From IMG/VR virus record IMGVR_UViG_3300042013_000065: a stretch of 64,000 nt of DNA, one strand, 5' to 3'. The notes below the pieces were generated by a model, which did not search any database, was not told the DNA's origin, and saw nothing but the letters and a program-made list of their open reading frames with translations. The DNA is from a virus. The translations under genes were made by a program, and so were the position numbers. Below, in pieces: positions 965 through 49,044 of the stretch. Position 1 is the stretch's first letter. The number at the start of each line of letters is the position of its first letter.

Positions 965-3268
965 GTGATGGTTGATAAGCTGGTATTACTTGATGCGGGC
1001 GAATCCGCAATTAACAATGCGAATGCTGGCGGGCTTTTAATTAACCCTGCAAGTTTTCGCATGGGCGATTCAGACCTTTATCCGTCGTCCACACAGCACA
1101 CGAACATTGTCGGAAATTTCGTAACCGGTGGCGAGATTCACCACGTCGAAGTTTTGAGCGCGAAAACAGCTCGCTTTGTATTGAGTGTTGATACCCGTTC
1201 GCTGGCGGGGCCAACCACTGTTAAAGAAGTGGTGATTTTCTTCGAAGGCAACATTGCTTTTGCACGTTGTGTATTTGCAAAGCCTTACATTTTGCAACCT
1301 GATGAACCGCTGCGTTTGAGCGTTGTTCTCGGTACAAGCCGCGCCGACCTGACTACAATCAGTGTGATTATCGGCGAGCATGATTCGATTCCGGCCACGC
1401 CGTTTTTGTATCGTCTGCCACCACCGGGTAACTCCGAATTCAATGCCATTTCTGTTCTGAATGGTATGCGTCACTTTGATGGAACAAACGGCCCTGTACT
1501 CGCTCAGCGTTACGGGGCTGGTGCGTTTCAATGGGCTTTTAGCGAACACCAACGCGTCTTTAACGGTGTTCCAACGTCGGCCACTGCAACATCTTTCAAA
1601 ATCCCTAACCAATCGTGGGCAGCGAACGAACAGGTAATTGTTCACGTTGTTTCCGGTAGCGGTGAAGGTAAAACGCGACGTTATCGCTACAACACTGCGG
1701 CGGCTGAATTCCGCGACGTGGATAATCAACCGATTCCGAATCTGCAAACATGCACAATTGCTGTATGGCGCATGGTTGGAACTTCTACAGGTTCGGGCGC
1801 ACCGGGCGCGGGTTTGCCACCTACCGATAACATTCCGAACGATTGGGTATTAACTCCCGGCCCTGACGGAACAGGTACATGGCAACCGCCGAAAGCAGCA
1901 TCGAAAATCATTGCAACGCTGTACACGAAACCGACTCGCCTTGAAGTAAATGCTCTGACGTTTATGGGCACGGGTGATCAATCTCGATACAGCACCGGTG
2001 AATTGATTGCGGAAAACGCAAACTATATTTACCCTGCACTCGGTATGGCAACGCAGCACCGTACAGCTTTCGAATTGAACGGTTCTGAATTGGAATTCGC
2101 AGAAGTTTTGCCGTCCACCATTCCAGTTGATTTGCGTGTATTTACGCGCTCGCCTTCGACCGGCACACGTGTACTGTTCAAAACCATTGACGCAGTTGGC
2201 GATGGTGAAACAGTTGAATTCGATATCGGTTTCGCAGTCGATAGCGCCGCGCATGTTTTCGCATTTATTTCGAGCATGCTGCAACCGGTTTCCACATACA
2301 CGTTTGACGCAATCACCAAAAAGATTCGTTTCATTTCTCCACCGGCTGCGGGTCTGCCAATTGAATTCCGCTGTCTGACCTACGTTAACGATACCGGCTA
2401 CAGCACGCGGATTGTGACACGCCTGTATAACACCGATAGCGATACATTCTTCCTGAAGCTGCCGACCACACCGCAAAGCATCGAACAGGTATTTGTTTCG
2501 CAATCTGGTGCGCACGTACACCAAGAAAACTACTCTTTGATTGAAGACGGTCTGGTGTTCACTGAGTCGCTTGAAAAAGGCGTCGAAGTGGAAGTAATGA
2601 TCTTCGAAAACATTCAAGCACAGGGTAGCGAAGCAACCGGTTTGAACGGCATTGTTATTGACGGCTATGTGACGAATAAAAACATCACATTGCTGCGCCA
2701 CGGTGCACCTGCTGTAATGCTTCCAATTCCAGCGCCAGCAATCAGCGTTGGTAAAGGTCTGCAAATTGATGCGTCCAGCGGCCAAGCTTTAATCAGCATT
2801 GATGCCGCAAGTTTCCCGAATGCGCCAGTGTTCACGAAATGGAGTATCGACCAGATTGAAAAGAATCAGGCCACGATTATCGTTACACAACGAATCGACC
2901 TGACGAAACCGTGCATCATTTTTGTGACTTGTGACTTCGCCGCGAAACTCGGGCCGGGTTACGTTTCAACAGAAGGCGCGGAAAACATGGAATACGTTGT
3001 GGGGATTCGTTCTTCACAATCGAAAGAGCCTGATTTTGGTCGTGCAATTCGTGGTACGAATACAGCCGGTTTGTTCACTGGCTCACAATCGAAATCCACA
3101 ATTGGTTATGCCAACGCCAGCATGACGCAAATGTTTGAACTTGATCCGTCGAACCACAACACAGGTTATGTGGAACTGGTTGCAAAAATGCGGATTAACA
3201 ACGCAAACACTTCGCAGTTCACGTCGTTGCTGACACTCAATTTTAACGCACTTGAGATTCCGAAATAA
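965..3268 (+). CDS. Baseplate wedge / tail fibre attachment protein
   Basis: Tail-collar-like N-terminus; about three internal repeats G.G..F...V...S...Q...Y.....F..P..G..VE. Confidence 0.7.
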   Translation: MMVDKLVLLDAGESAINNANAGGLLINPASFRMGDSDLYPSSTQHTNIVGNFVTGGEIHHVEVLSAKTARFVLSVDTRSLAGPTTVKEVVIFFEGNIAFARCVFAKPYILQPDEPLRLSVVLGTSRADLTTISVIIGEHDSIPATPFLYRLPPPGNSEFNAISVLNGMRHFDGTNGPVLAQRYGAGAFQWAFSEHQRVFNGVPTSATATSFKIPNQSWAANEQVIVHVVSGSGEGKTRRYRYNTAAAEFRDVDNQPIPNLQTCTIAVWRMVGTSTGSGAPGAGLPPTDNIPNDWVLTPGPDGTGTWQPPKAASKIIATLYTKPTRLEVNALTFMGTGDQSRYSTGELIAENANYIYPALGMATQHRTAFELNGSELEFAEVLPSTIPVDLRVFTRSPSTGTRVLFKTIDAVGDGETVEFDIGFAVDSAAHVFAFISSMLQPVSTYTFDAITKKIRFISPPAAGLPIEFRCLTYVNDTGYSTRIVTRLYNTDSDTFFLKLPTTPQSIEQVFVSQSGAHVHQENYSLIEDGLVFTESLEKGVEVEVMIFENIQAQGSEATGLNGIVIDGYVTNKNITLLRHGAPAVMLPIPAPAISVGKGLQIDASSGQALISIDAASFPNAPVFTKWSIDQIEKNQATIIVTQRIDLTKPCIIFVTCDFAAKLGPGYVSTEGAENMEYVVGIRSSQSKEPDFGRAIRGTNTAGLFTGSQSKSTIGYANASMTQMFELDPSNHNTGYVELVAKMRINNANTSQFTSLLTLNFNALEIPK

Positions 3269-3690
3269 TGTACTGGTACGTCGAAGGTAGAGGACTCGTT
3301 TCAGGAAACGTTGAGCCAGAAGGCCGTGCATTTCCACTCGACGAAGCTACCTTCGCGCACTGCCGCGACAACTACGAATTACTGGATATTTTTGTACGGG
3401 ATAATCAACTGCATATCACAATCGACATGCCTGCGTTTCGCGCAACAGCATTGTCGAAATTGGTTAACGTTGATTATATCGTGCACAACAACGTGAAATA
3501 TTATGACGATGAACTCGGCTACTTGAGTGCCACGTACATAACACGTAGTGGGTATCCGTGCGTTCTCAGTCAGAAACAAATGATTGATAAAGTGACCGAA
3601 AGGAATCGGTTATTCGCATACAAACGTAGCGGCATAAACAGTGCGCGAACACCTGAAGAGATTGAGGGGTATCTATGTCAAACGCCCTAA
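3268..3690 (+). CDS. Hypothetical protein, possibly tail fibre assembly chaperone
   Basis: TAATG coupling to the upstream gene; C-terminal INSARTPEEI resembles fibre-chaperone endings. Confidence 0.6.
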   Translation: MYWYVEGRGLVSGNVEPEGRAFPLDEATFAHCRDNYELLDIFVRDNQLHITIDMPAFRATALSKLVNVDYIVHNNVKYYDDELGYLSATYITRSGYPCVLSQKQMIDKVTERNRLFAYKRSGINSARTPEEIEGYLCQTP

Positions 3691-4472
3691 CGATTGCGCA
3701 GTTAGACAATAACTCTGTGACGGTTCCAATTGGCCGCACGGTATTTACGAACACAAAGAAACAGAACTCAAAAGTCGTGCAAGCCGCACAGACTGGCGAA
3801 GAATTAAAAGCGCCTACGTATCAACTCATTGAAGCCCCCGGCTACGATGGTGAACAGGCGTATCGTTCGAACATTGACGAAGTTTATTTCGATAAGCCTT
3901 TGGATCGTGAAAGTCGTCAAATTGCTGAATGCAGTTTCGATAATGACAAAGGGCTTTTCACAATCGTTCGAAAGAATGGCGAAGTAATTACCGCTTCTAG
4001 TTTTCTCCGGCAAATAGATTTCGGTGTTGGCCCACAAGGCCCACGCGGTGATTCTGGAAAAGATCAAGAAGACGGCGTAGACGGTCGCGACGGTGCGGAC
4101 GGCGTAACAGGTTGCGCGGGGCCAAATGGTGCAGAAGGTCGTCCGGGGCCAATGGGTGATTTCGGTATTGAAGGCCCTGTAGGTCAGCAAGGAATGTTCG
4201 GGCCATTAGGCCCTACCGGCCCGCGTGGTGATCGTGGCCCCGCTGGCCCTCCCGGATTCGAAGGCAAACGCGGTTTGTGTGGCCCTAGTTGCCCAACCAC
4301 AAGCCAAGGCCCGTGCGGCCCTGAAGGCATGACAATGAAGAAAGAAGTTTCCCTGTTAGAACATCCTCAACCGGATGAATTGATTTGGGCCGCTGCTGAA
4401 GATTGTGTTTGCCCAATTCGTCCGAACGAAGTTTATCCTGAGTACGTCAGGAAACTTGTTATTTTTGCATAA
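3675..4472 (+). CDS. Collagen-like fibre protein 1
   Basis: Long Gly-X-Y run with GCAGP; Cys-rich C-terminus. Confidence 0.9.
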   Translation: MSNALTIAQLDNNSVTVPIGRTVFTNTKKQNSKVVQAAQTGEELKAPTYQLIEAPGYDGEQAYRSNIDEVYFDKPLDRESRQIAECSFDNDKGLFTIVRKNGEVITASSFLRQIDFGVGPQGPRGDSGKDQEDGVDGRDGADGVTGCAGPNGAEGRPGPMGDFGIEGPVGQQGMFGPLGPTGPRGDRGPAGPPGFEGKRGLCGPSCPTTSQGPCGPEGMTMKKEVSLLEHPQPDELIWAAAEDCVCPIRPNEVYPEYVRKLVIFA

Positions 4473-4482
4473 GGGGAATTGA

Positions 4483-6966
4483 ATGCTTTGTACGACTATT
4501 CCAGTCGTAGCGAAATCCCCCGTACCCGTAGCGAAAACAATTGCTGAATGCGGCAAATGGATTACGTTTTGCGGTAAGGGAAAGCACTCAGTTTCATTAT
4601 TTTTGGGAACGATTCAGGCCCCCGTTGTTATTTGGTATGAACGGGACACGCCGGAAGACGCTTTATACGTTCACCAATTCGATGAAATTGTGGCCGCTGC
4701 GCCGTTGGACGATGCCGTTGGTTCGTTCACGTTTCAATATGCGCCACTGGATAAAAAACCCGGTAATGACGAAATCATTATCACGCACGAAGGCAATAGC
4801 GTTAATAGTCGCGTGCATGTCCGTGTGGATTGTCCTGAAAGCTTGTGTCTTCCCAACAACGTTAAGCCGCCACCGCTGCAAGAAACGTCGATCAAATGCG
4901 GGAAGCAATGGCACCAAGCAGGATACGTAAAAAAGAACACAATTTTGCTCGGCGATGAACCGGGTTTTGTTGAAGTTATTTGGGAAGTGATTGGCACAGC
5001 AGAAGTTCGTTTCTTCCAAGACAAAACTTTGCTGAAAACGATTACTTCCAACCGTGACGGAACGTTTAGCTTTTTCTACGATCCGGCATTGGGCGATGTT
5101 TATGCAACCACGCAGGGCACCGGCTCTGTCGATTACATTTTCACTTGCCCATACATTCCAATTGATCCAGAAGTTCCGGTGTATGAATTCACGTGTGGTG
5201 CAGAACCATACGCGTACGAAGCACCGCGCAGCGTGGAAGTTAAACTGCCTGTAGAAATTGGTACGATTGACATTGAAGTAACGCTAGTTGAAACGGTGCG
5301 TGTTGAATTCCGTCAAAACAACGTTCCTTTTTACGTCCTTTCGAATCACGCGGGTACAGTGACATTCTCGTATGACTTCGATCCCGATAAAGGGAAAGTG
5401 ACAATTGAAACCACGGGTTACGGTGCAATCAGCGTCAAAGTGAAATGCCCGTACAACGCGCCCGATCCTGATCCGACTGACGTTTTGGATAGCTGCGGAA
5501 CAACACTCGAAACATTCCCCGGCTGGTCAAACGTTACGCTCGACATGGGCGGCGTGAATGGCAAAACGATTCTGGATATCGTGTTAACTGGAACGCCTGT
5601 AACCGTCGAACACACAGTGGTTCAAACAATCACTGAATCGGGTTCCTACGAATTCGATGTGAATAAAGACGTTTCTTTCGTGATCAAAAGTCGCGGCAAT
5701 GATTACCGTATGCGCGCATCTTGCCCGGTACGAATTCCTACCGAAGAGGTGATGGATTGTGGCACTCAAAAAACAGTTGATAGTTTCTCAAATACGGTCG
5801 TTCGTTACGGCAGCTCGCCGGGAAATACAACGATTACAACAAACCTCGACGTATCTGTATATCGAGACGGTGTTCTCCAAGGCATGGGCCAAAACATCAC
5901 GTTCTTTTACGCAGGCACTGGTGTGGTTAAAATCGTTTCGTTAACAACTGACCAACAGTTGACGATTAACGCGACATGTCCGGCAATTAACCATTTGCCG
6001 TGCAACGATCCACTGACACAATTCAACGGCGGCGATAGCGTAATCGTAGATTTTGCGATTCCAAACATTCGTGGTCACGTGAAATTCGAAGTAGAAATAA
6101 CCGGTTCTGTTTCCATTGCGTGGCGTGTGGGTAACACCACTGTTAAAACGTCCACGGCCACTGAAAATTTTGAATTGATTCTGCGTACAGTTGACGGCCT
6201 GCGTGCTGTTAGCTCGGGCACAGGAACATTCAAAATCAAAGTGTATTGTGCAACACCGATCGTACCTGTAACGGTTACGCCATTTACTGAAGTAGTGAAT
6301 TGCCAACCGGGTCAAACGAGTGGTGGTGTTCCGGGCGGTGATCCTTTTGTCACAGCGTCTTGGACAGTCACAGAATGGAGCGATGGCACCACAACAACGT
6401 CAGAGAAAGTTTACGACGGTGTGTGTATGCCAGTGACTGAGGTTCCTATTCGTCCTGCGCGTTGGGGCGTTGCAATGTTTGCTAACCGTTTGTTTACCGG
6501 TGGCCCGATTGCATCGGAAATCACGGAAGAAGAAGAAATGTATGGTGTGAATCCGAACGTAACACCAAACGGAAAACCATACACGCGTTGGACAGGCATT
6601 CAGGATTTTGCTGATAGTGTGATGACCAACACGATTGTTCCGACAAGCACAACGCCTGTGCAAATTGACGCTGTGATTCCGGCAGACGATTACATCTATT
6701 TGATGTGGGATAAGCGCGCAGGAACAGACGTGGACATCGTTCTGCTGCCAAACTTTACCGCATTCTGGAAAGGTGTTGCTTGGCGTAACGATATCATCCC
6801 GAACGCTGACGGTTATCCTGAATACGATCCAAATCTTCCTGAAATTCTTACTGTTCGTTACGACGACGGTACGGGTGAGCGGGATTGGTTGATTCGTAAG
6901 AAAGAAGACACCGCATTGCCGGGCGGAACGTTGCACGAATCGTACACGGTTAAGTACAAAGTCTAA
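4483..6966 (+). CDS. Cys-bounded beta-sandwich repeat virion/fibre protein
   Basis: About six 85-100 aa repeats, each starting near C(G) and ending in xxxCP. Confidence 0.8.
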   Translation: MLCTTIPVVAKSPVPVAKTIAECGKWITFCGKGKHSVSLFLGTIQAPVVIWYERDTPEDALYVHQFDEIVAAAPLDDAVGSFTFQYAPLDKKPGNDEIIITHEGNSVNSRVHVRVDCPESLCLPNNVKPPPLQETSIKCGKQWHQAGYVKKNTILLGDEPGFVEVIWEVIGTAEVRFFQDKTLLKTITSNRDGTFSFFYDPALGDVYATTQGTGSVDYIFTCPYIPIDPEVPVYEFTCGAEPYAYEAPRSVEVKLPVEIGTIDIEVTLVETVRVEFRQNNVPFYVLSNHAGTVTFSYDFDPDKGKVTIETTGYGAISVKVKCPYNAPDPDPTDVLDSCGTTLETFPGWSNVTLDMGGVNGKTILDIVLTGTPVTVEHTVVQTITESGSYEFDVNKDVSFVIKSRGNDYRMRASCPVRIPTEEVMDCGTQKTVDSFSNTVVRYGSSPGNTTITTNLDVSVYRDGVLQGMGQNITFFYAGTGVVKIVSLTTDQQLTINATCPAINHLPCNDPLTQFNGGDSVIVDFAIPNIRGHVKFEVEITGSVSIAWRVGNTTVKTSTATENFELILRTVDGLRAVSSGTGTFKIKVYCATPIVPVTVTPFTEVVNCQPGQTSGGVPGGDPFVTASWTVTEWSDGTTTTSEKVYDGVCMPVTEVPIRPARWGVAMFANRLFTGGPIASEITEEEEMYGVNPNVTPNGKPYTRWTGIQDFADSVMTNTIVPTSTTPVQIDAVIPADDYIYLMWDKRAGTDVDIVLLPNFTAFWKGVAWRNDIIPNADGYPEYDPNLPEILTVRYDDGTGERDWLIRKKEDTALPGGTLHESYTVKYKV

Positions 6967-45884: not shown

Positions 45885-46313
45885 TCACGCACCGAACGGC
45901 TCCAAATGTTTATGCAGGCAAGTGATACAACGGCGTCCGTTATCGTATTCGAATTCCGAATCTGTACGCTCCAAATCCGCCCACACAGCGCCGTCTTCAA
46001 CGTTGAGTTTTACCACCAGCCAAACGTGGCCTTCAAACATTACCGGAATGTTGATTGCGTACGGAACGCGTGGGCCTTGTGCAACCACGATTGCGCCGCC
46101 CGGTTCATCCGACAGCAACGCTTCCAACAAACCGAAGTTTTCCGCCTCTTCCAACTTCAGGCACGCTTCGATATAGGTCAGCAAATGACTGTTCATGCTG
46201 CGGTGGTTTACACGCGCAAAAGCTTCAATCTTTTCACGCCAGCCGTCCGGCAAACGAACAACGAATTTGTCGGCGGTGCGGCTGTTGTACAAGGCTTGTT
46301 TAACTGGTTTCAT
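45885..46313 (-). CDS. amrZ: AmrZ (AlgZ)-like Arc/ribbon-helix-helix transcription regulator
   Basis: MKPVKQ..YNSRTADKFVVRLPDG.RE.I...AR..HRSMNS closely matches the Pseudomonas AmrZ N-terminus. Confidence 0.9.
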   Translation of the reverse strand: MKPVKQALYNSRTADKFVVRLPDGWREKIEAFARVNHRSMNSHLLTYIEACLKLEEAENFGLLEALLSDEPGGAIVVAQGPRVPYAINIPVMFEGHVWLVVKLNVEDGAVWADLERTDSEFEYDNGRRCITCLHKHLEPFGA

Positions 46314-46957
46314 TTCTTTGTCCGTTTGGCGAGTTTTGGAACGGCCTGCATTGCGTTGGTAACGAGTTCGACTTCTGCATCACTCAGCAATTGGTGCATG
46401 GTGGCCGGTGTGCCGCGCTTGAACATGAACTTGATGATTTCAGCAGCACGAACAGACAAACGTTCCGCAAGAATCGCCACGGTAATATCTGACCTTTCTT
46501 CCGGTCGCTCTTCTGTCGCTGCACCTACAACGTGATTTGCAGCAGCGTCGATTGCAGCCAGTTGGCGCAACAGCATGTCTTTTTCCCAATTGTCGCCGAA
46601 AAAGAATTTGTTCAAACCTTTGATGTCGTGGCCGTCCAGACTGAATTCACCGTTCACACGATCAACGCTATCGAGCGAGATATGTTCCATTGCGTGGTAA
46701 GCGGCTGCAACTTCCATCACGTCGATGCCGTAATACTTTGCCCAATTGTTGATCGTGACATCACTGAATGGGAAATACCCGTTGCCGGGAACTTTACGTT
46801 CTTTGCCAGCCTGCACAGCGCGATCTTTTTCAATGCCTTCGCGAATGTAGCGCAGCGTCAGTTCATGCAAACCTTTGAATGTGCCGTCGCTGAATTTTTT
46901 CAGCTCTTCAAACAGGTCATCCGGCACACGTGGGCGGTAAGGAGTTGGACGATTCAT
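46310..46957 (-). CDS. RHH-like N-terminus fused to a translation initiation factor IF2 N-domain-like segment
   Basis: RPRVPDDLFEELKK...L..RYIREGI; ITVAILAERLSVRAAEIIKFMFKRGTPATMHQ. Confidence 0.75.
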   Translation of the reverse strand: MNRPTPYRPRVPDDLFEELKKFSDGTFKGLHELTLRYIREGIEKDRAVQAGKERKVPGNGYFPFSDVTINNWAKYYGIDVMEVAAAYHAMEHISLDSVDRVNGEFSLDGHDIKGLNKFFFGDNWEKDMLLRQLAAIDAAANHVVGAATEERPEERSDITVAILAERLSVRAAEIIKFMFKRGTPATMHQLLSDAEVELVTNAMQAVPKLAKRTKK

Positions 46958-47341
46958 TTAGATAATCCCGTAGTCGATGGCGACAGGCTTGCCGTTAATC
47001 ATGCCAATGGAACACACTTTGTTTTCCACAATCTTTTTGATCGTGTCTTTGTTGAGTCCTTCGACTTGTTCAACAAGCTTCCAGAATTCTTCAACATATG
47101 CGAAACGATCTTCGGCGTCGTAGCTTTTCACGTCAGCACGCGGCATGACGATAACGATACATCCCCACGAACGCCACAGCACAGGAGCCAGCAGCGGCGT
47201 ATCCAAATGGCTGAACGAATATTCTGTGTCATTGCACAAAATACCTTGCAGGAAATTCCGCCAGTGCTTAATCATGGGAAACTTGATCGCGTACTTACCA
47301 ATCAGCAAAACACTTCTGGTAGAGCCGTGCTTCCATTTCAT
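46958..47341 (-). CDS. Minimal protein-kinase-like protein
   Basis: GSTR.V...AIKFP, N..E, LAPV, ENK...G...VAIDYG. Confidence 0.7.
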   Translation of the reverse strand: MKWKHGSTRSVLLIGKYAIKFPMIKHWRNFLQGILCNDTEYSFSHLDTPLLAPVLWRSWGCIVIVMPRADVKSYDAEDRFAYVEEFWKLVEQVEGLNKDTIKKIVENKVCSIGMINGKPVAIDYGII

Positions 47342-47601
47342 TTTCTTTTCCTAAAAGAATTCAACTTTCGCATTTCTTCGACTGTTAAAACGGTGCTGGC
47401 TTCGTATGGAACTCTTTTGCCTTTGTAATGGTTGATAACAATACCCAAGCCATTATATTTCACACCGTTCAACAAATCGAGAATCAACGTCAGTTTTAAT
47501 TTGCGTTGCCGAGCATACCAATCAACGGTGGTAATTCCTCCCGTCGAAAGGTCATGCTGTTGTGGATACCAGTTTGCTCCCGGTGTGGATTTCACCGGCA
47601 A
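47338..47601 (-). CDS. Hypothetical basic protein
   Basis: Packed ORF. Confidence 0.65.
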   Translation of the reverse strand: MPVKSTPGANWYPQQHDLSTGGITTVDWYARQRKLKLTLILDLLNGVKYNGLGIVINHYKGKRVPYEASTVLTVEEMRKLNSFRKRK

Positions 47602-48446
47602 ATGTCGTTGAACGAAAGCTCTGCAAAGTTTTTGCCGTTGTCCATAAAGAACGAATACTTTTCAGCAGGCGTCAGCAATTGGCGATATTTTTCACCGTCC
47701 GAAATTGCTAGCTTTTCAGGCTTGCCGTTCACGTACTGGATAACGGTCATACCATTACCGCTAACGTCCAAACGGGTTTCGGTTTCAACTGTGCTTTCAT
47801 CGTGTGCACGCCAGTCAAGAATCTGATAATAGCGATACGAAACCGTGCGTGTTCCGGTGACGGTGCGTTCACCCACTTTGAAAATGCAGTTCTTTTGCGC
47901 CGACGTGTATTTGTCCCATGCTGGCACAATCGTTTTGAAATTGTAGTAGCCCCACACGCCAGCACCGACGATGCACAGGAACACCAGCGACCACACGGCG
48001 AACAGGAAGGCCCGTATACGCGTTTTGAGGCGTTGTGTGAACGCTTGGCGGGCTTCCATGCGTTTCTTTGCCCGCTCTTCAGCAGCAGCGTTTGAGCGGC
48101 CATCCTCTAGGGACGTTTGCAGCTTCGCAAAAGTGGCGTCGAGCTTGGCGCGGTGTTCCGGGTCATCAATGCGCGAATAGTCGCCGAGACGGCCCACGAC
48201 ACCATCGCGCCCCATGTCTTTCAAATCAGCCGGGTCACGTTGAACGCGATCACCTTGCCACGTGCGATTTATATCGTCGTAATCGGCAATTAAATTGTTC
48301 CTTGCCTCTTCGGATACAGGAGGAATAGAACGATCAATTTGTTCGATAAAAGTTTTACGATTTCTTGCCTGTGTGTCTGCGCGAAGTTCTGCGTCCAGCG
48401 CCAAATCCAATTCACGGTCGGCGTCACGGGTGGCTTGATCAGTCAT
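47592..48446 (-). CDS. Single-pass membrane protein
   Basis: Start MTDQ; central TM segment AFLFAVWSLVFLCIVGAGVWGYY. Confidence 0.8.
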   Translation of the reverse strand: MTDQATRDADRELDLALDAELRADTQARNRKTFIEQIDRSIPPVSEEARNNLIADYDDINRTWQGDRVQRDPADLKDMGRDGVVGRLGDYSRIDDPEHRAKLDATFAKLQTSLEDGRSNAAAEERAKKRMEARQAFTQRLKTRIRAFLFAVWSLVFLCIVGAGVWGYYNFKTIVPAWDKYTSAQKNCIFKVGERTVTGTRTVSYRYYQILDWRAHDESTVETETRLDVSGNGMTVIQYVNGKPEKLAISDGEKYRQLLTPAEKYSFFMDNGKNFAELSFNDICR

Positions 48447-49044
48447 TGGTAAATTCCTTGTACTTGGCGAAGTGAGCGATTTTCTCGGCGTTGTGTTCTG
48501 CAATCGCGGCATCGTTGGTTTGCACGATGTCACACGGATAAACGACCGTGTTCTCGCAGATGAAACGGCAGCGATTAGGCATGTCTTTCACGAACAGCAA
48601 TTTGTTGCACAGAATGTCGTAGTTAACGATCAAACTGGTATCCGCTACAAGATACACATTCGCATCGGTGCGTGGAATGAAGTTGTACAAAACTGCTTGG
48701 CTGGTGCCTTCAATCCAGAACAAATGTGCAGGGCGGTCGCGGAAAATATATTTCGGCAACCAGCGGCCTTTGTCGTTCAGAATCGAATGCTGAATGCTGC
48801 GGGCGTACGTGCGCAAATCGTAATCGCGCTGATATTGCACACCGTCGAAATGCTTCTGCAAAACATCCCACGTTAATTTGCAACGTTTGCGGGCCTGCAT
48901 GATACGATTGGCAACACGCTTTTTCGCAATGTCATCGACCGTCAGCCTTTCGCACCGACTTTCTAAAAGCTTGCGAACTTCTGAAACAGGCATCATCTGC
49001 ATACCGACTTGGTGCATTGTGCTGTGTGTAAATGAATCCGTCAT
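48439..49044 (-). CDS. Hypothetical protein
   Basis: Coupled ORF. Confidence 0.75.
   Translation of the reverse strand: MTDSFTHSTMHQVGMQMMPVSEVRKLLESRCERLTVDDIAKKRVANRIMQARKRCKLTWDVLQKHFDGVQYQRDYDLRTYARSIQHSILNDKGRWLPKYIFRDRPAHLFWIEGTSQAVLYNFIPRTDANVYLVADTSLIVNYDILCNKLLFVKDMPNRCRFICENTVVYPCDIVQTNDAAIAEHNAEKIAHFAKYKEFTND

What the first reader, a model, noticed from the sequence alone, without database searches (positions are those of the whole stretch)
46310..46957. RHH protein fused to a captured IF2 N-domain: possible transcription-translation host mimic
Seen: the N-terminus looks like a ribbon-helix-helix. The C-terminal ~46 aa (46349-46486, ITVAILAERLSVRAAEIIKFMFKRGTPATMHQLLSDAEVELV) closely resembles the second IF2_N repeat of bacterial infB (ITV..LA..M.VK...VIK.M.K.G...TINQ..D.ETA.LV). 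The gene is translationally coupled to amrZ and directly follows a mini-kinase. Inference: a three-gene host-takeover cassette in which a stolen ribosome-associated IF2 module tethers a DNA-binding protein to 30S subunits or acts as a decoy for IF2-targeting factors. I know of no description of this fusion.
Basis: partly seen in the sequence, partly recalled or inferred. Interest (0 to 1): 0.8.

Follow-up and report, generated by a model that had tools for sequence, protein, structure and literature searches.

The report
Phage regulator carrying IF2's ribosome anchor
A giant Pseudomonas phage has copied the small piece of the host's initiation factor IF2 that clamps IF2 to the small ribosomal subunit and attached it to one of its own DNA-binding-type proteins, which may let the phage reach host ribosomes; this has not been tested.

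Summary
The 215-aa ORF at 46310-46957 (-) passes Pfam IF2_N above the curated cut-off. Its residues 157-205 are a copy of the N2 sub-domain of Pseudomonas IF2, not N1. N2 is the three-helix bundle that docks IF2 on helix h16 of 16S rRNA (PDB 7UIU).

In an exhaustive search of 1.84 billion proteins, every credible non-self hit was IF2 or an IF2 fragment. All but the two weakest carry the Pseudomonas KFMFK motif.

The N-terminus is probably a ribbon-helix-helix dimer, supported by prediction only. The gene overlaps an AmrZ-like gene by 4 bp and directly follows a 127-aa protein with a kinase-like fold.

Among 11 homologue clusters, the N-terminal 135 residues are the conserved core. N2 is an accessory tail. 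It appears to have been gained once and cleanly lost twice, and it is under purifying selection where kept (dN/dS 0.20-0.37).

The core + AmrZ-like pair is invariant; the kinase-like gene is not.

The host origin is well supported (about 0.9). Binding to the 30S subunit is inferred from the source domain only (about 0.4). Repurposed DNA binding is a serious rival.

I found no paper describing this fusion. This scan has already reported the same family on other DNA (e1-5408939, e1-5408947). Verdict: real, unusual and directly testable.

The parts
46310..46957 (-). Whole gene, 215 aa plus stop: RHH-like domain, acidic middle domain, flexible linker, IF2-N2 copy, basic tail.
   Evidence: 11 homologue clusters; alignment A1.
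46793..46957 (-). Residues 1-55: ribbon-helix-helix-like dimerisation and DNA-binding domain, nearly invariant in all homologues.
   Evidence: dN/dS 0.02-0.11. hhalign in register with the Arc partner's RHH, E 0.0038, probability 8.8%. Homodimer model scored 0.48 against a best control of 0.00; the runs share at least 88% of their contacts, partner pLDDT at least 72; residues 6-12 pair across the interface. RHH structures match at Z 3.4-4.3. No Pfam hit.
46553..46792 (-). Residues 56-135: conserved acidic (net -6), mostly helical middle domain of unknown fold; part of the family core.
   Evidence: A1; dN/dS 0.14-0.33; charge; no Pfam, Atlas or fold match.
46490..46552 (-). Residues 136-156: variable, acidic, low-confidence linker.
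   Evidence: pLDDT below 50 at residues 142-155; length and sequence vary between homologues.
46343..46489 (-). [quoted passage not shown] S168-V169-R170 correspond to the h16-contacting S277-V278-K279.
46313..46342 (-). Residues 206-215: basic tail AVPKLAKRTKK-type (net +5), conserved in all long forms and kept in P0009, which lost N2.
45885..46313 (-). Downstream partner gene with a 4-bp ATGA overlap: AmrZ/Arc-like RHH plus a beta-rich C-terminal domain. It follows the core gene in every locus examined.
46958..47341 (-). Upstream 127-aa gene with a minimal protein-kinase-like fold (invariant K20, E40, D123). Frequent but not obligatory neighbour.
   Evidence: absent in L089, L002/L003 and L004.

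Best explanation
The gene encodes a phage regulator built on a conserved 135-residue core: an RHH-type dimer domain plus an acidic middle domain. It always works beside a translationally coupled AmrZ-like protein.

In one sub-lineage of Lu11/HRDY3-like jumbo phages of Pseudomonas, this core acquired a roughly 60-residue piece of the host infB gene. That piece is the N2 sub-domain of IF2, which in the host docks IF2 onto helix h16 at the shoulder of the 30S subunit. The piece sits on a flexible linker and is followed by a short basic tail.

Shown by sequence and fold comparison:
- the domain's identity as N2 and its Pseudomonas origin;
- its accessory status;
- its maintenance by selection.

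Inferred: the copied module, helped by the basic tail, gives the dimeric protein an affinity for the h16 site of host 30S subunits. The protein could then bring ribosomes to the DNA or nascent transcripts it binds, or it could compete with IF2's auxiliary anchor. My odds are about 0.9 for the origin and about 0.4 for 30S binding; the figure in the confidence field is for the whole statement.
For: Identity of the domain:
- Pfam IF2_N passes above its cut-off.
- The best solved relative is the P. aeruginosa IF2 N2. N2 scores E 3e-11 against E 0.8 for N1.
- Fold matches: 7UIU/7UNV at Foldseek probability 1.00; T. thermophilus IF2 N domain at Z 6.5, rmsd 2.1 over 53 residues. All Atlas shape neighbours but two unnamed clusters that carry IF2_N are named IF2.

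Origin:
- The exhaustive phmmer search of 1.84e9 representatives found, apart from the phage's own cluster and one repeat-protein hit (P0013), only IF2 or IF2 fragments. All but the two weakest carry KFMFK, at 44-69% identity.
- The 8-mer EIIKFMFK occurs in Pseudomonas infB.
- Among 200 evenly drawn Gammaproteobacteria, the Pseudomonas genome scores 46.6 bits at 57% identity and the next best 40.4 bits at 46%.
- Over 49 core columns, 26-27 residues are identical to Pseudomonas against 18-22 for the others. F177, F179 and P184 are shared derived residues.
- The phage is a relative of Pseudomonas phages HRDY3 and Lu11.

What N2 does in the host:
- It binds h16, with S277, V278, K279 and R259 forming the interface (PMC9192638).
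- It docks on h16 in E. coli 30S and 70S complexes (bioRxiv 10.64898/2026.06.26.734871).
- The IF2 N-terminal region anchors IF2 to 30S without IF1, GTP or tRNA (PMC4611024).

In the phage copy:
- S-V-R is kept at the SVK position in 4 of 6 long forms.
- The bundle is less acidic than the host's (net -1 vs -3), and a +5 tail follows it.
- dN/dS is 0.20-0.37.
- The phage copies fall on one side of a branch in the tree (support 92/82).

RHH dimer: the homodimer model scored 0.48 against a best control of 0.00. That mark was reached by 20 of 30 proteins solved as pairs and by 1 of 23 solved as single chains. The runs share at least 88% of their contacts, and the partner pLDDT is at least 72. RHH dimers are common in the PDB, so this pass shows likeness to them.
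Against: - No experiment bears on 30S binding.
- The IF2 tail that wraps the h16 minor groove (residues 248-265, with R259) is replaced in the window by an acidic linker, TEERPEERSD.
- Two long forms have lost the SVK-type motif (SLH in P0005, KTS in P0006).
- N2 was lost cleanly twice, and basal family members never had it, so it is not needed for the core function.
- The fold is also that of MerR-type HTH DNA binders, which match at similar scores (pSK1 Par Z 5.9, GlnR 5.0, RacA 5.0).
- The tree could not place the phage clade inside Pseudomonas: long branch, 78 columns.
- The Pseudomonas loci were picked through the EIIKFMFK pattern, so they over-represent that variant.
Confidence: 0.42

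Rival explanations
1. The captured N2 bundle was repurposed as a second nucleic-acid-binding module (DNA, or RNA other than rRNA) or as a protein-contact module of the regulator. The ribosome plays no part.
For: - The fold equals MerR-type winged-HTH DNA binders at similar scores.
- The SVK/SVR surface lies at the turn and start of helix 2, which is the surface that HTH proteins use on DNA.
- Extra arginines (R166, R181) and a +5 tail were added.
- The h16-wrapping IF2 tail was not kept.
- The protein already has a DNA-binding-type RHH domain and an AmrZ-like partner.
Against: - The closest sequence and fold relatives are IF2 N2 itself, not any DNA binder.
- The rRNA-contact motif is retained as SVR in four lineages.
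- No DNA-binding role is known for N2 in IF2.
Confidence: 0.3
2. The N2 copy is a decoy or substrate mimic. It may draw off a factor that recognises IF2: a host defence sensor, or the phage's own neighbouring kinase-like protein.
For: - The gene directly follows a kinase-fold gene in most loci.
- By language-model features, the 127-aa protein's nearest named clusters include the T7 0.7 kinase family at 0.92. This is a lead only.
Against: - The kinase-like gene is absent next to one long form (L089) and present next to forms without N2 (L005, L123), so the two do not co-vary.
- No factor that targets IF2 N2 is known to me.
- The kinase-like protein lacks a canonical catalytic loop.
Confidence: 0.1
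3. The N2 tail is a neutral passenger from an old illegitimate recombination event and has no function of its own.
For: - It was lost cleanly at least twice without loss of the gene.
- It diverged strongly in P0006 (pN about 0.5, against 0.12-0.15 in that protein's core).
Against: - dN/dS is 0.20-0.37 across four lineages, with synonymous sites near saturation.
- The frame is intact in all long forms, and the basic tail is conserved.
- Base composition is already phage-like (GC3 0.57 against 0.67-0.80 in the host), so the tail has been kept for a long time.
Confidence: 0.06
4. The similarity to IF2 is convergent or due to chance, and the domain is a generic helix-turn-helix.
For: The domain is short (49 residues), and the tree does not nest it inside Pseudomonas.
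Against: - E 5.2e-9 to Pfam IF2_N, above the curated cut-off.
- Up to 64% identity over 42 residues, with the 8-mer EIIKFMFK identical to Pseudomonas IF2.
- Apart from the phage's own cluster and one repeat-protein hit (P0013), only IF2 was found among 1.84e9 proteins.
Confidence: 0.02

Closest known systems
N2 sub-domain of bacterial IF2 (P. aeruginosa residues 266-312; PDB 7UIU, 7UNV; Basu et al. 2022, PMC9192638)
   Same: - Same three-helix bundle: Foldseek probability 1.00 at 44% identity over 52 columns.
- 48% identity to P. aeruginosa and up to 64% over 42 residues (26-27 of 49 bundle columns) to P. fluorescens/putida-type IF2.
- KFMFK.G.P motif shared.
- The h16-contact motif SVK is kept as SVR.
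   Different: - No GTPase or any other IF2 domain.
- The upstream h16-wrapping tail (with R259) is not kept in the window.
- A new basic C-terminal tail follows the bundle.
- It is attached to a phage RHH-type protein by a flexible acidic linker, and is predicted to be present in two copies per dimer.
N1 sub-domain / Domain I of IF2, the NusA-binding module (Metelev et al. 2025, PMC12297416; PDB 1ND9)
   Same: Same Pfam family (IF2_N) and same general fold.
   Different: The phage copy aligns to N1 only at E 0.8, against 3e-11 for N2. The beta-strand segment 57-90, which helps bind NusA, has no counterpart.
Ribbon-helix-helix regulators (Arc, AmrZ, CopG, TacA/ParD-type antitoxins)
   Same: - Strand-helix-helix pattern in residues 7-46.
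- Predicted symmetric dimer, with residues 6-12 pairing across the interface.
- Adjacent to, and co-translated with, a bona fide AmrZ-like RHH gene.
   Different: No RHH Pfam model matches, and the similarity is below significance. The domain carries an 80-residue acidic domain of unknown fold and the IF2 module.
Phage proteins that dock on host ribosomes (PhiKZ014 and other PhiKZ early proteins; Gerovac et al. 2024, PMC10914614)
   Same: A jumbo Pseudomonas phage with a small non-structural protein that is a candidate ribosome binder.
   Different: Those proteins are not host-derived, were found by co-sedimentation, and PhiKZ014 binds the 50S subunit. Here the candidate site (30S h16) is inferred from homology only.

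Membership tests
IF2_N (Pfam PF04760), N2 type | Match to the family profile above the curated gathering score. | tested here: met
   36.2 bits against a cut-off of 25.3, E 5.2e-9, residues 156-203.
IF2_N (Pfam PF04760), N2 type | Three-helix bundle fold of the IF2 N domains. | tested here: met
   AF2 pLDDT 84-87 in the bundle. 7UIU/7UNV at probability 1.00. 4b3x_A at Z 6.5, rmsd 2.1 over 53 residues.
IF2_N (Pfam PF04760), N2 type | Closer to the G-domain-proximal repeat (N2) than to the N-terminal repeat (N1). | tested here: met
   BLASTP gives N2 at E 3e-11 and N1 at E 0.8.
IF2_N (Pfam PF04760), N2 type | h16-contact residues S277, V278, K279. | tested here: met
   S168-V169-R170 in the window and in P0002-P0004. 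Not kept in P0005 (SLH) or P0006 (KTS).
IF2_N (Pfam PF04760), N2 type | Preceding tail (residues 248-265, R259) that wraps the h16 minor groove. | tested here: not met
   The window has the acidic TEERPEERSD. Relatives keep a possible remnant PV(V)KEK.
IF2_N (Pfam PF04760), N2 type | Actual binding to the 30S subunit. | not testable with these tools
   Needs co-sedimentation, footprinting or cryo-EM.
Translation initiation factor IF2 (whole protein) | GTPase G domain and C1/C2 tRNA-binding domains. | tested here: not met
   Only residues 156-203 match IF2, and no other Pfam domain is found. The protein is not an IF2.
Ribbon-helix-helix superfamily | Match to an RHH sequence profile. | tested here: inconclusive
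   No Pfam hit at E up to 10. hhalign to the Arc partner is in register but weak (E 0.0038, probability 8.8%).
Ribbon-helix-helix superfamily | Intertwined dimer with an antiparallel N-terminal beta ribbon. | tested here: met
   Prediction only: score 0.48 against a best control of 0.00. That mark was reached by 20 of 30 solved pairs and 1 of 23 single chains. The runs share at least 88% of their contacts, and the partner pLDDT is at least 72. Residues 8-8, 8-11 and 11-7 pair across chains. The pass may reflect likeness to solved RHH dimers.
Ribbon-helix-helix superfamily | Structural match to solved RHH domains. | tested here: inconclusive
   TacA, MatP, MazE-mt9, KacA, PutA52 and ParD match residues 9-54 at Z 3.4-4.3. 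This is within the range of common helical arrangements.
Arc/AmrZ family (downstream neighbour) | Arc-like RHH domain. | tested here: met
   PF03869 at E 1.8e-14. AmrZ 3qoq at E 8.6e-14 over residues 1-57.
Protein-kinase-like fold (upstream neighbour) | Kinase fold with the beta-3 Lys, helix-C Glu and DFG-type Asp. | tested here: met
   pLDDT 93.5. Every one of the 47 PDB matches listed is kinase-fold, at probability 0.97-1.00 and TM 0.45-0.64. K20, E40 and D123 are invariant.
Protein-kinase-like fold (upstream neighbour) | Catalytic loop (HRD / D-x-K-x-x-N) and a sequence-profile match. | tested here: not met
   No Pfam kinase hit. The loop is replaced by the conserved VE.K.DSFG. Activity is unknown.

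The most novel reading that the evidence does not exclude
The RHH-N2 dimer is a phage-made transcription-translation coupling factor. It sits on phage DNA through its RHH ribbon, together with the AmrZ-like partner. With its two IF2-derived anchors it holds 30S subunits at the h16 site next to the emerging transcripts. Phage messages are thereby loaded with ribosomes ahead of host messages, in analogy to the NusA-IF2 and RfaH bridges.
Probability: 0.13. Interest if true: 0.85.

Novelty: new variant of a known kind. Interest (0 to 1): 0.64.

Why it matters
Phages are known to carry whole translation genes (tRNAs, IF3, ribosomal proteins) and to make unrelated proteins that dock on ribosomes. 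I found no published case in which a phage copied only the ribosome-anchoring module of an initiation factor and attached it to a DNA-binding-type regulator.

If the copy still binds h16, three things follow:
- It would be a natural, portable '30S tag'.
- It would point to a new route of host takeover, either ribosome recruitment to phage templates or interference with IF2 anchoring.
- It would give a direct handle on what the N2-h16 contact contributes in vivo.

The Pseudomonas-specific signature also serves as a host marker for an uncultured 312-kb phage.

Natural variants with and without the tail exist side by side, which makes clean comparative experiments possible.

Tried and rejected
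- **Other phages carrying the fusion.** tblastn of the whole protein against 50,697 phage records gave one hit, 'Pseudomonas phage Y6'. That hit is host nusA-infB DNA in an unverified record. The core alone gave nothing at E up to 1, and megablast of the 6-kb region gave nothing. A scan of IMG/VR with the family alignment found no relative. HRDY3 and Noxifer have an Arc-like gene, but the gene before it is unrelated.
- **Tree of N2 domains** (44 rows, 78 columns). The phage copies fall on one side of a branch (support 92/82), but they sit on a long branch that attaches outside all the bacterial rows. The tree therefore neither nests them in Pseudomonas nor excludes it. I relied instead on scores and shared derived residues.
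- **Middle domain (residues 56-135).** No Pfam match, no Atlas feature hit, and it is barely covered by the fold searches. Its fold stays open; this does not show that it is new.
- **Pfam, PHROG and Atlas on the core** gave nothing.
- **Promoter and terminator scan of 43-53 kb** found nothing above shuffled expectation.
- **Own assembly.** It is not held, and the nearest virus record, G001, lacks the gene.
- **Recent capture.** I considered this and rejected it: nucleotide identity to host infB is only 59-62%, and GC3 is already phage-like.

Full report
**What is there.** The minus-strand ORF at 46310-46957 encodes 215 residues. It lies in a tightly packed run of small minus-strand genes. The upstream 127-aa gene ends TAA immediately before its ATG. 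Its own stop overlaps the ATG of the next gene (ATGA).

The window belongs to a jumbo phage. A 767-aa protein at 965-3268 is 66% identical to proteins of Pseudomonas phages HRDY3 (314 kb) and Lu11 (281 kb), and 43% identical to one of PaBG. A near-identical copy of the target protein sits on a 312-kb metagenomic contig.

**Is the IF2 resemblance real?** Yes.
- Pfam IF2_N matches residues 156-203 at E 5.2e-9 and 36.2 bits, above the curated 25.3.
- Among all PDB sequences, the best match is P. aeruginosa IF2 residues 266-314 (E 7.8e-7). E. coli IF2 residues 315-361 reach only E 0.042.
- Against a full P. aeruginosa IF2, the match is to N2 (267-312, 48% identity, E 3e-11) and not N1 (E 0.8).
- The AlphaFold model has pLDDT 84-87 in this part and below 50 in the preceding linker.
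- Foldseek puts 7UNV/7UIU first ('N2 sub-domain of IF2 bound to the 30S subunit', probability 1.00).
- An independent aligner puts the T. thermophilus IF2 N domain first (Z 6.5, rmsd 2.1, 53 residues).
- All but two of the nearest Atlas shapes are named IF2; those two are unnamed clusters that carry IF2_N.

**Where did it come from?**
- An exhaustive phmmer search of residues 150-215 against 1.84 billion representatives returned three kinds of hit: the phage's own cluster, one repeat protein matched in ten short stretches (P0013, not examined), and IF2 or IF2 fragments. All but the two weakest carry the motif KFMFK, at 44-69% identity.
- A pattern scan of 185,579 species genomes found the 8-mer EIIKFMFK in Pseudomonas infB, with up to 64% identity over 42 residues. 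That scan is biased towards exactly this motif.
- As an unbiased control, I searched 200 genomes drawn evenly from the class. The Pseudomonas genome scored 46.6 bits at 57% identity. The next best scored 40.4 bits at 46%, and the rest 38 bits or less.
- Over the 49 bundle columns, the window shares 26-27 residues with Pseudomonas and 18-22 with the best 22 other sampled genomes. F177, F179 and P184 are shared with Pseudomonas but rare or absent elsewhere (18%, 9%, 0%).
- A tree keeps the phage copies on one side of a branch (support 92/82). It leaves them on a long branch whose attachment is unresolved.
- Nucleotide identity to host infB is 59-62%. GC3 is 0.57, close to the rest of the gene (0.55) and well below the host's 0.67-0.80. 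The capture is therefore old.

Two unpublished genomes (G144 and G042) were among the 200 sampled. G144 (L102) was one of the 22 outgroup rows.

**How it sits in the family.** Only 11 homologue clusters exist among 5.8 billion. All share residues 1-135. Six clusters are long forms (208-221 aa) and carry the N2 tail. Five are short forms (135-157 aa) and do not.

On a tree of the core, the two most distant members and P0008 are short. A well-supported clade (97/99) holds all long forms plus two short ones. The simplest reading is one gain and two later losses.
- P0007 is a clean deletion that still overlaps the next gene by 4 bp.
- P0009 lost the bundle but kept the basic end, AKRTMK.

Where kept, the bundle evolves under purifying selection: dN/dS is 0.20-0.37 in four lineages. 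The comparable figures are 0.02-0.11 for residues 1-55 and 0.14-0.33 for residues 56-135. The copy in L001 (P0006) is far more diverged than its core. The refutation criterion 'decaying in orthologues' is therefore not met, but the module is clearly optional.

**The rest of the protein and the neighbours.**
- Residues 7-46 have the strand-helix-helix pattern.
- They align in register with the RHH of the neighbouring Arc-type protein, though not significantly (E 0.0038, probability 8.8%).
- A two-copy model of residues 1-58 scored 0.48 against a best control of 0.00. That mark was reached by 20 of 30 proteins solved as pairs and by 1 of 23 solved as single chains. The runs share at least 88% of their contacts, and the partner pLDDT is at least 72. 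Residues 6-12 pair across the interface. RHH dimers are common in the PDB, so this shows likeness, not binding.
- RHH antitoxins, MatP and PutA52 match residues 9-54 at Z 3.4-4.3.
- Residues 56-135 are acidic and have no recognisable relative.
- The downstream gene is AmrZ-like (Pfam Arc E 1.8e-14; 3qoq E 8.6e-14). It follows the core gene with a 4-bp overlap in all ten loci examined.
- The upstream 127-aa protein folds with pLDDT 93.5 and matches only protein-kinase folds. K20, E40 and D123 are invariant, but there is no canonical catalytic loop and no Pfam hit.
- That upstream gene is present in seven loci and absent in L089, L002/L003 and L004. It occurs next to both long and short forms, so it does not co-vary with N2.

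**Mechanism.** In IF2, N2 is the bundle that docks on h16 at the 30S shoulder. S277, V278, K279 and R259 form the main interface, and the preceding tail lies in the minor groove (PMC9192638). The same docking is seen in E. coli 30S and 70S initiation complexes (bioRxiv 10.64898/2026.06.26.734871). The N-terminal region anchors IF2 to 30S without IF1, GTP or tRNA (PMC4611024). N1, by contrast, binds NusA (PMC12297416).

The phage copy differs from the host's N2 as follows:
- It keeps S168-V169-R170 in four of six long forms.
- It is less acidic than the host bundle (net -1 vs -3).
- It has gained R166 and R181.
- It is followed by a +5 tail.
- In the window it lacks the IF2 tail with R259.

My best reading is that the tail gives a dimeric regulator an affinity for the h16 site (about 0.4). 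The main rival is that it now serves as an HTH-type DNA or RNA binder (about 0.3), because MerR-type HTH domains match almost as well. Decoy and passenger readings are less likely.

**Known or new.** Full-text searches found no description of a phage protein with an IF2 N domain. This scan has, however, already reported what appears to be the same family on other DNA (e1-5408939 and e1-5408947), as well as other captures of IF2 N domains by phages and satellites. My tests agree with those notes.

Noticed in passing
window 46958-47341 (-): A 127-aa protein with a confident (pLDDT 93.5) minimal protein-kinase-like fold. K20, E40 and D123 are invariant, there is no HRD/DxKxxN loop, and no Pfam hit. 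Homologues occur in T4-like and jumbo phages (PHROG 4301). It would be among the smallest kinase-fold proteins.
   Followed up: partly
window 45885-46313 (-); L002:5414-6049; L004:1737-2366: The AmrZ-like partner has a beta-rich C-terminal domain in place of the host's. In two loci where the core gene lacks N2, the partner carries an extra helical insert of about 70 aa between the RHH and that domain.
   Followed up: partly
L086 (OQ572408.1, 'Pseudomonas phage Y6', UNVERIFIED) 1694-5725: This 'phage' record holds intact host nusA and an 840-aa infB. It is host DNA (a mis-assembly or a transducing fragment), not a phage IF2 gene.
   Followed up: yes
L001:4928-5593 (P0006): The C-terminal bundle of this homologue is far more diverged than its core (pN about 0.5 against 0.12-0.15). 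It has a 13-residue insert before the basic tail and no longer passes Pfam IF2_N.
   Followed up: partly
L047 (NZ_JBEGED010000012.1): A contig labelled Xanthomonas sp. WHRI 1810A carries a Pseudomonas-type infB N2 with EIIKFMFK. The label may be wrong, or the assembly contaminated.
   Followed up: no
window 47338-47601 (-) and 47592-48533 (-): The 87-aa and 313-aa genes upstream of the kinase-like gene have no family. The 313-aa protein has a predicted membrane helix region and only faint DotU/IcmF-like hits (E 0.04-0.1). The relatives' loci carry a 66-aa gene directly before the kinase-like gene, or directly before the core gene in L089.
   Followed up: no
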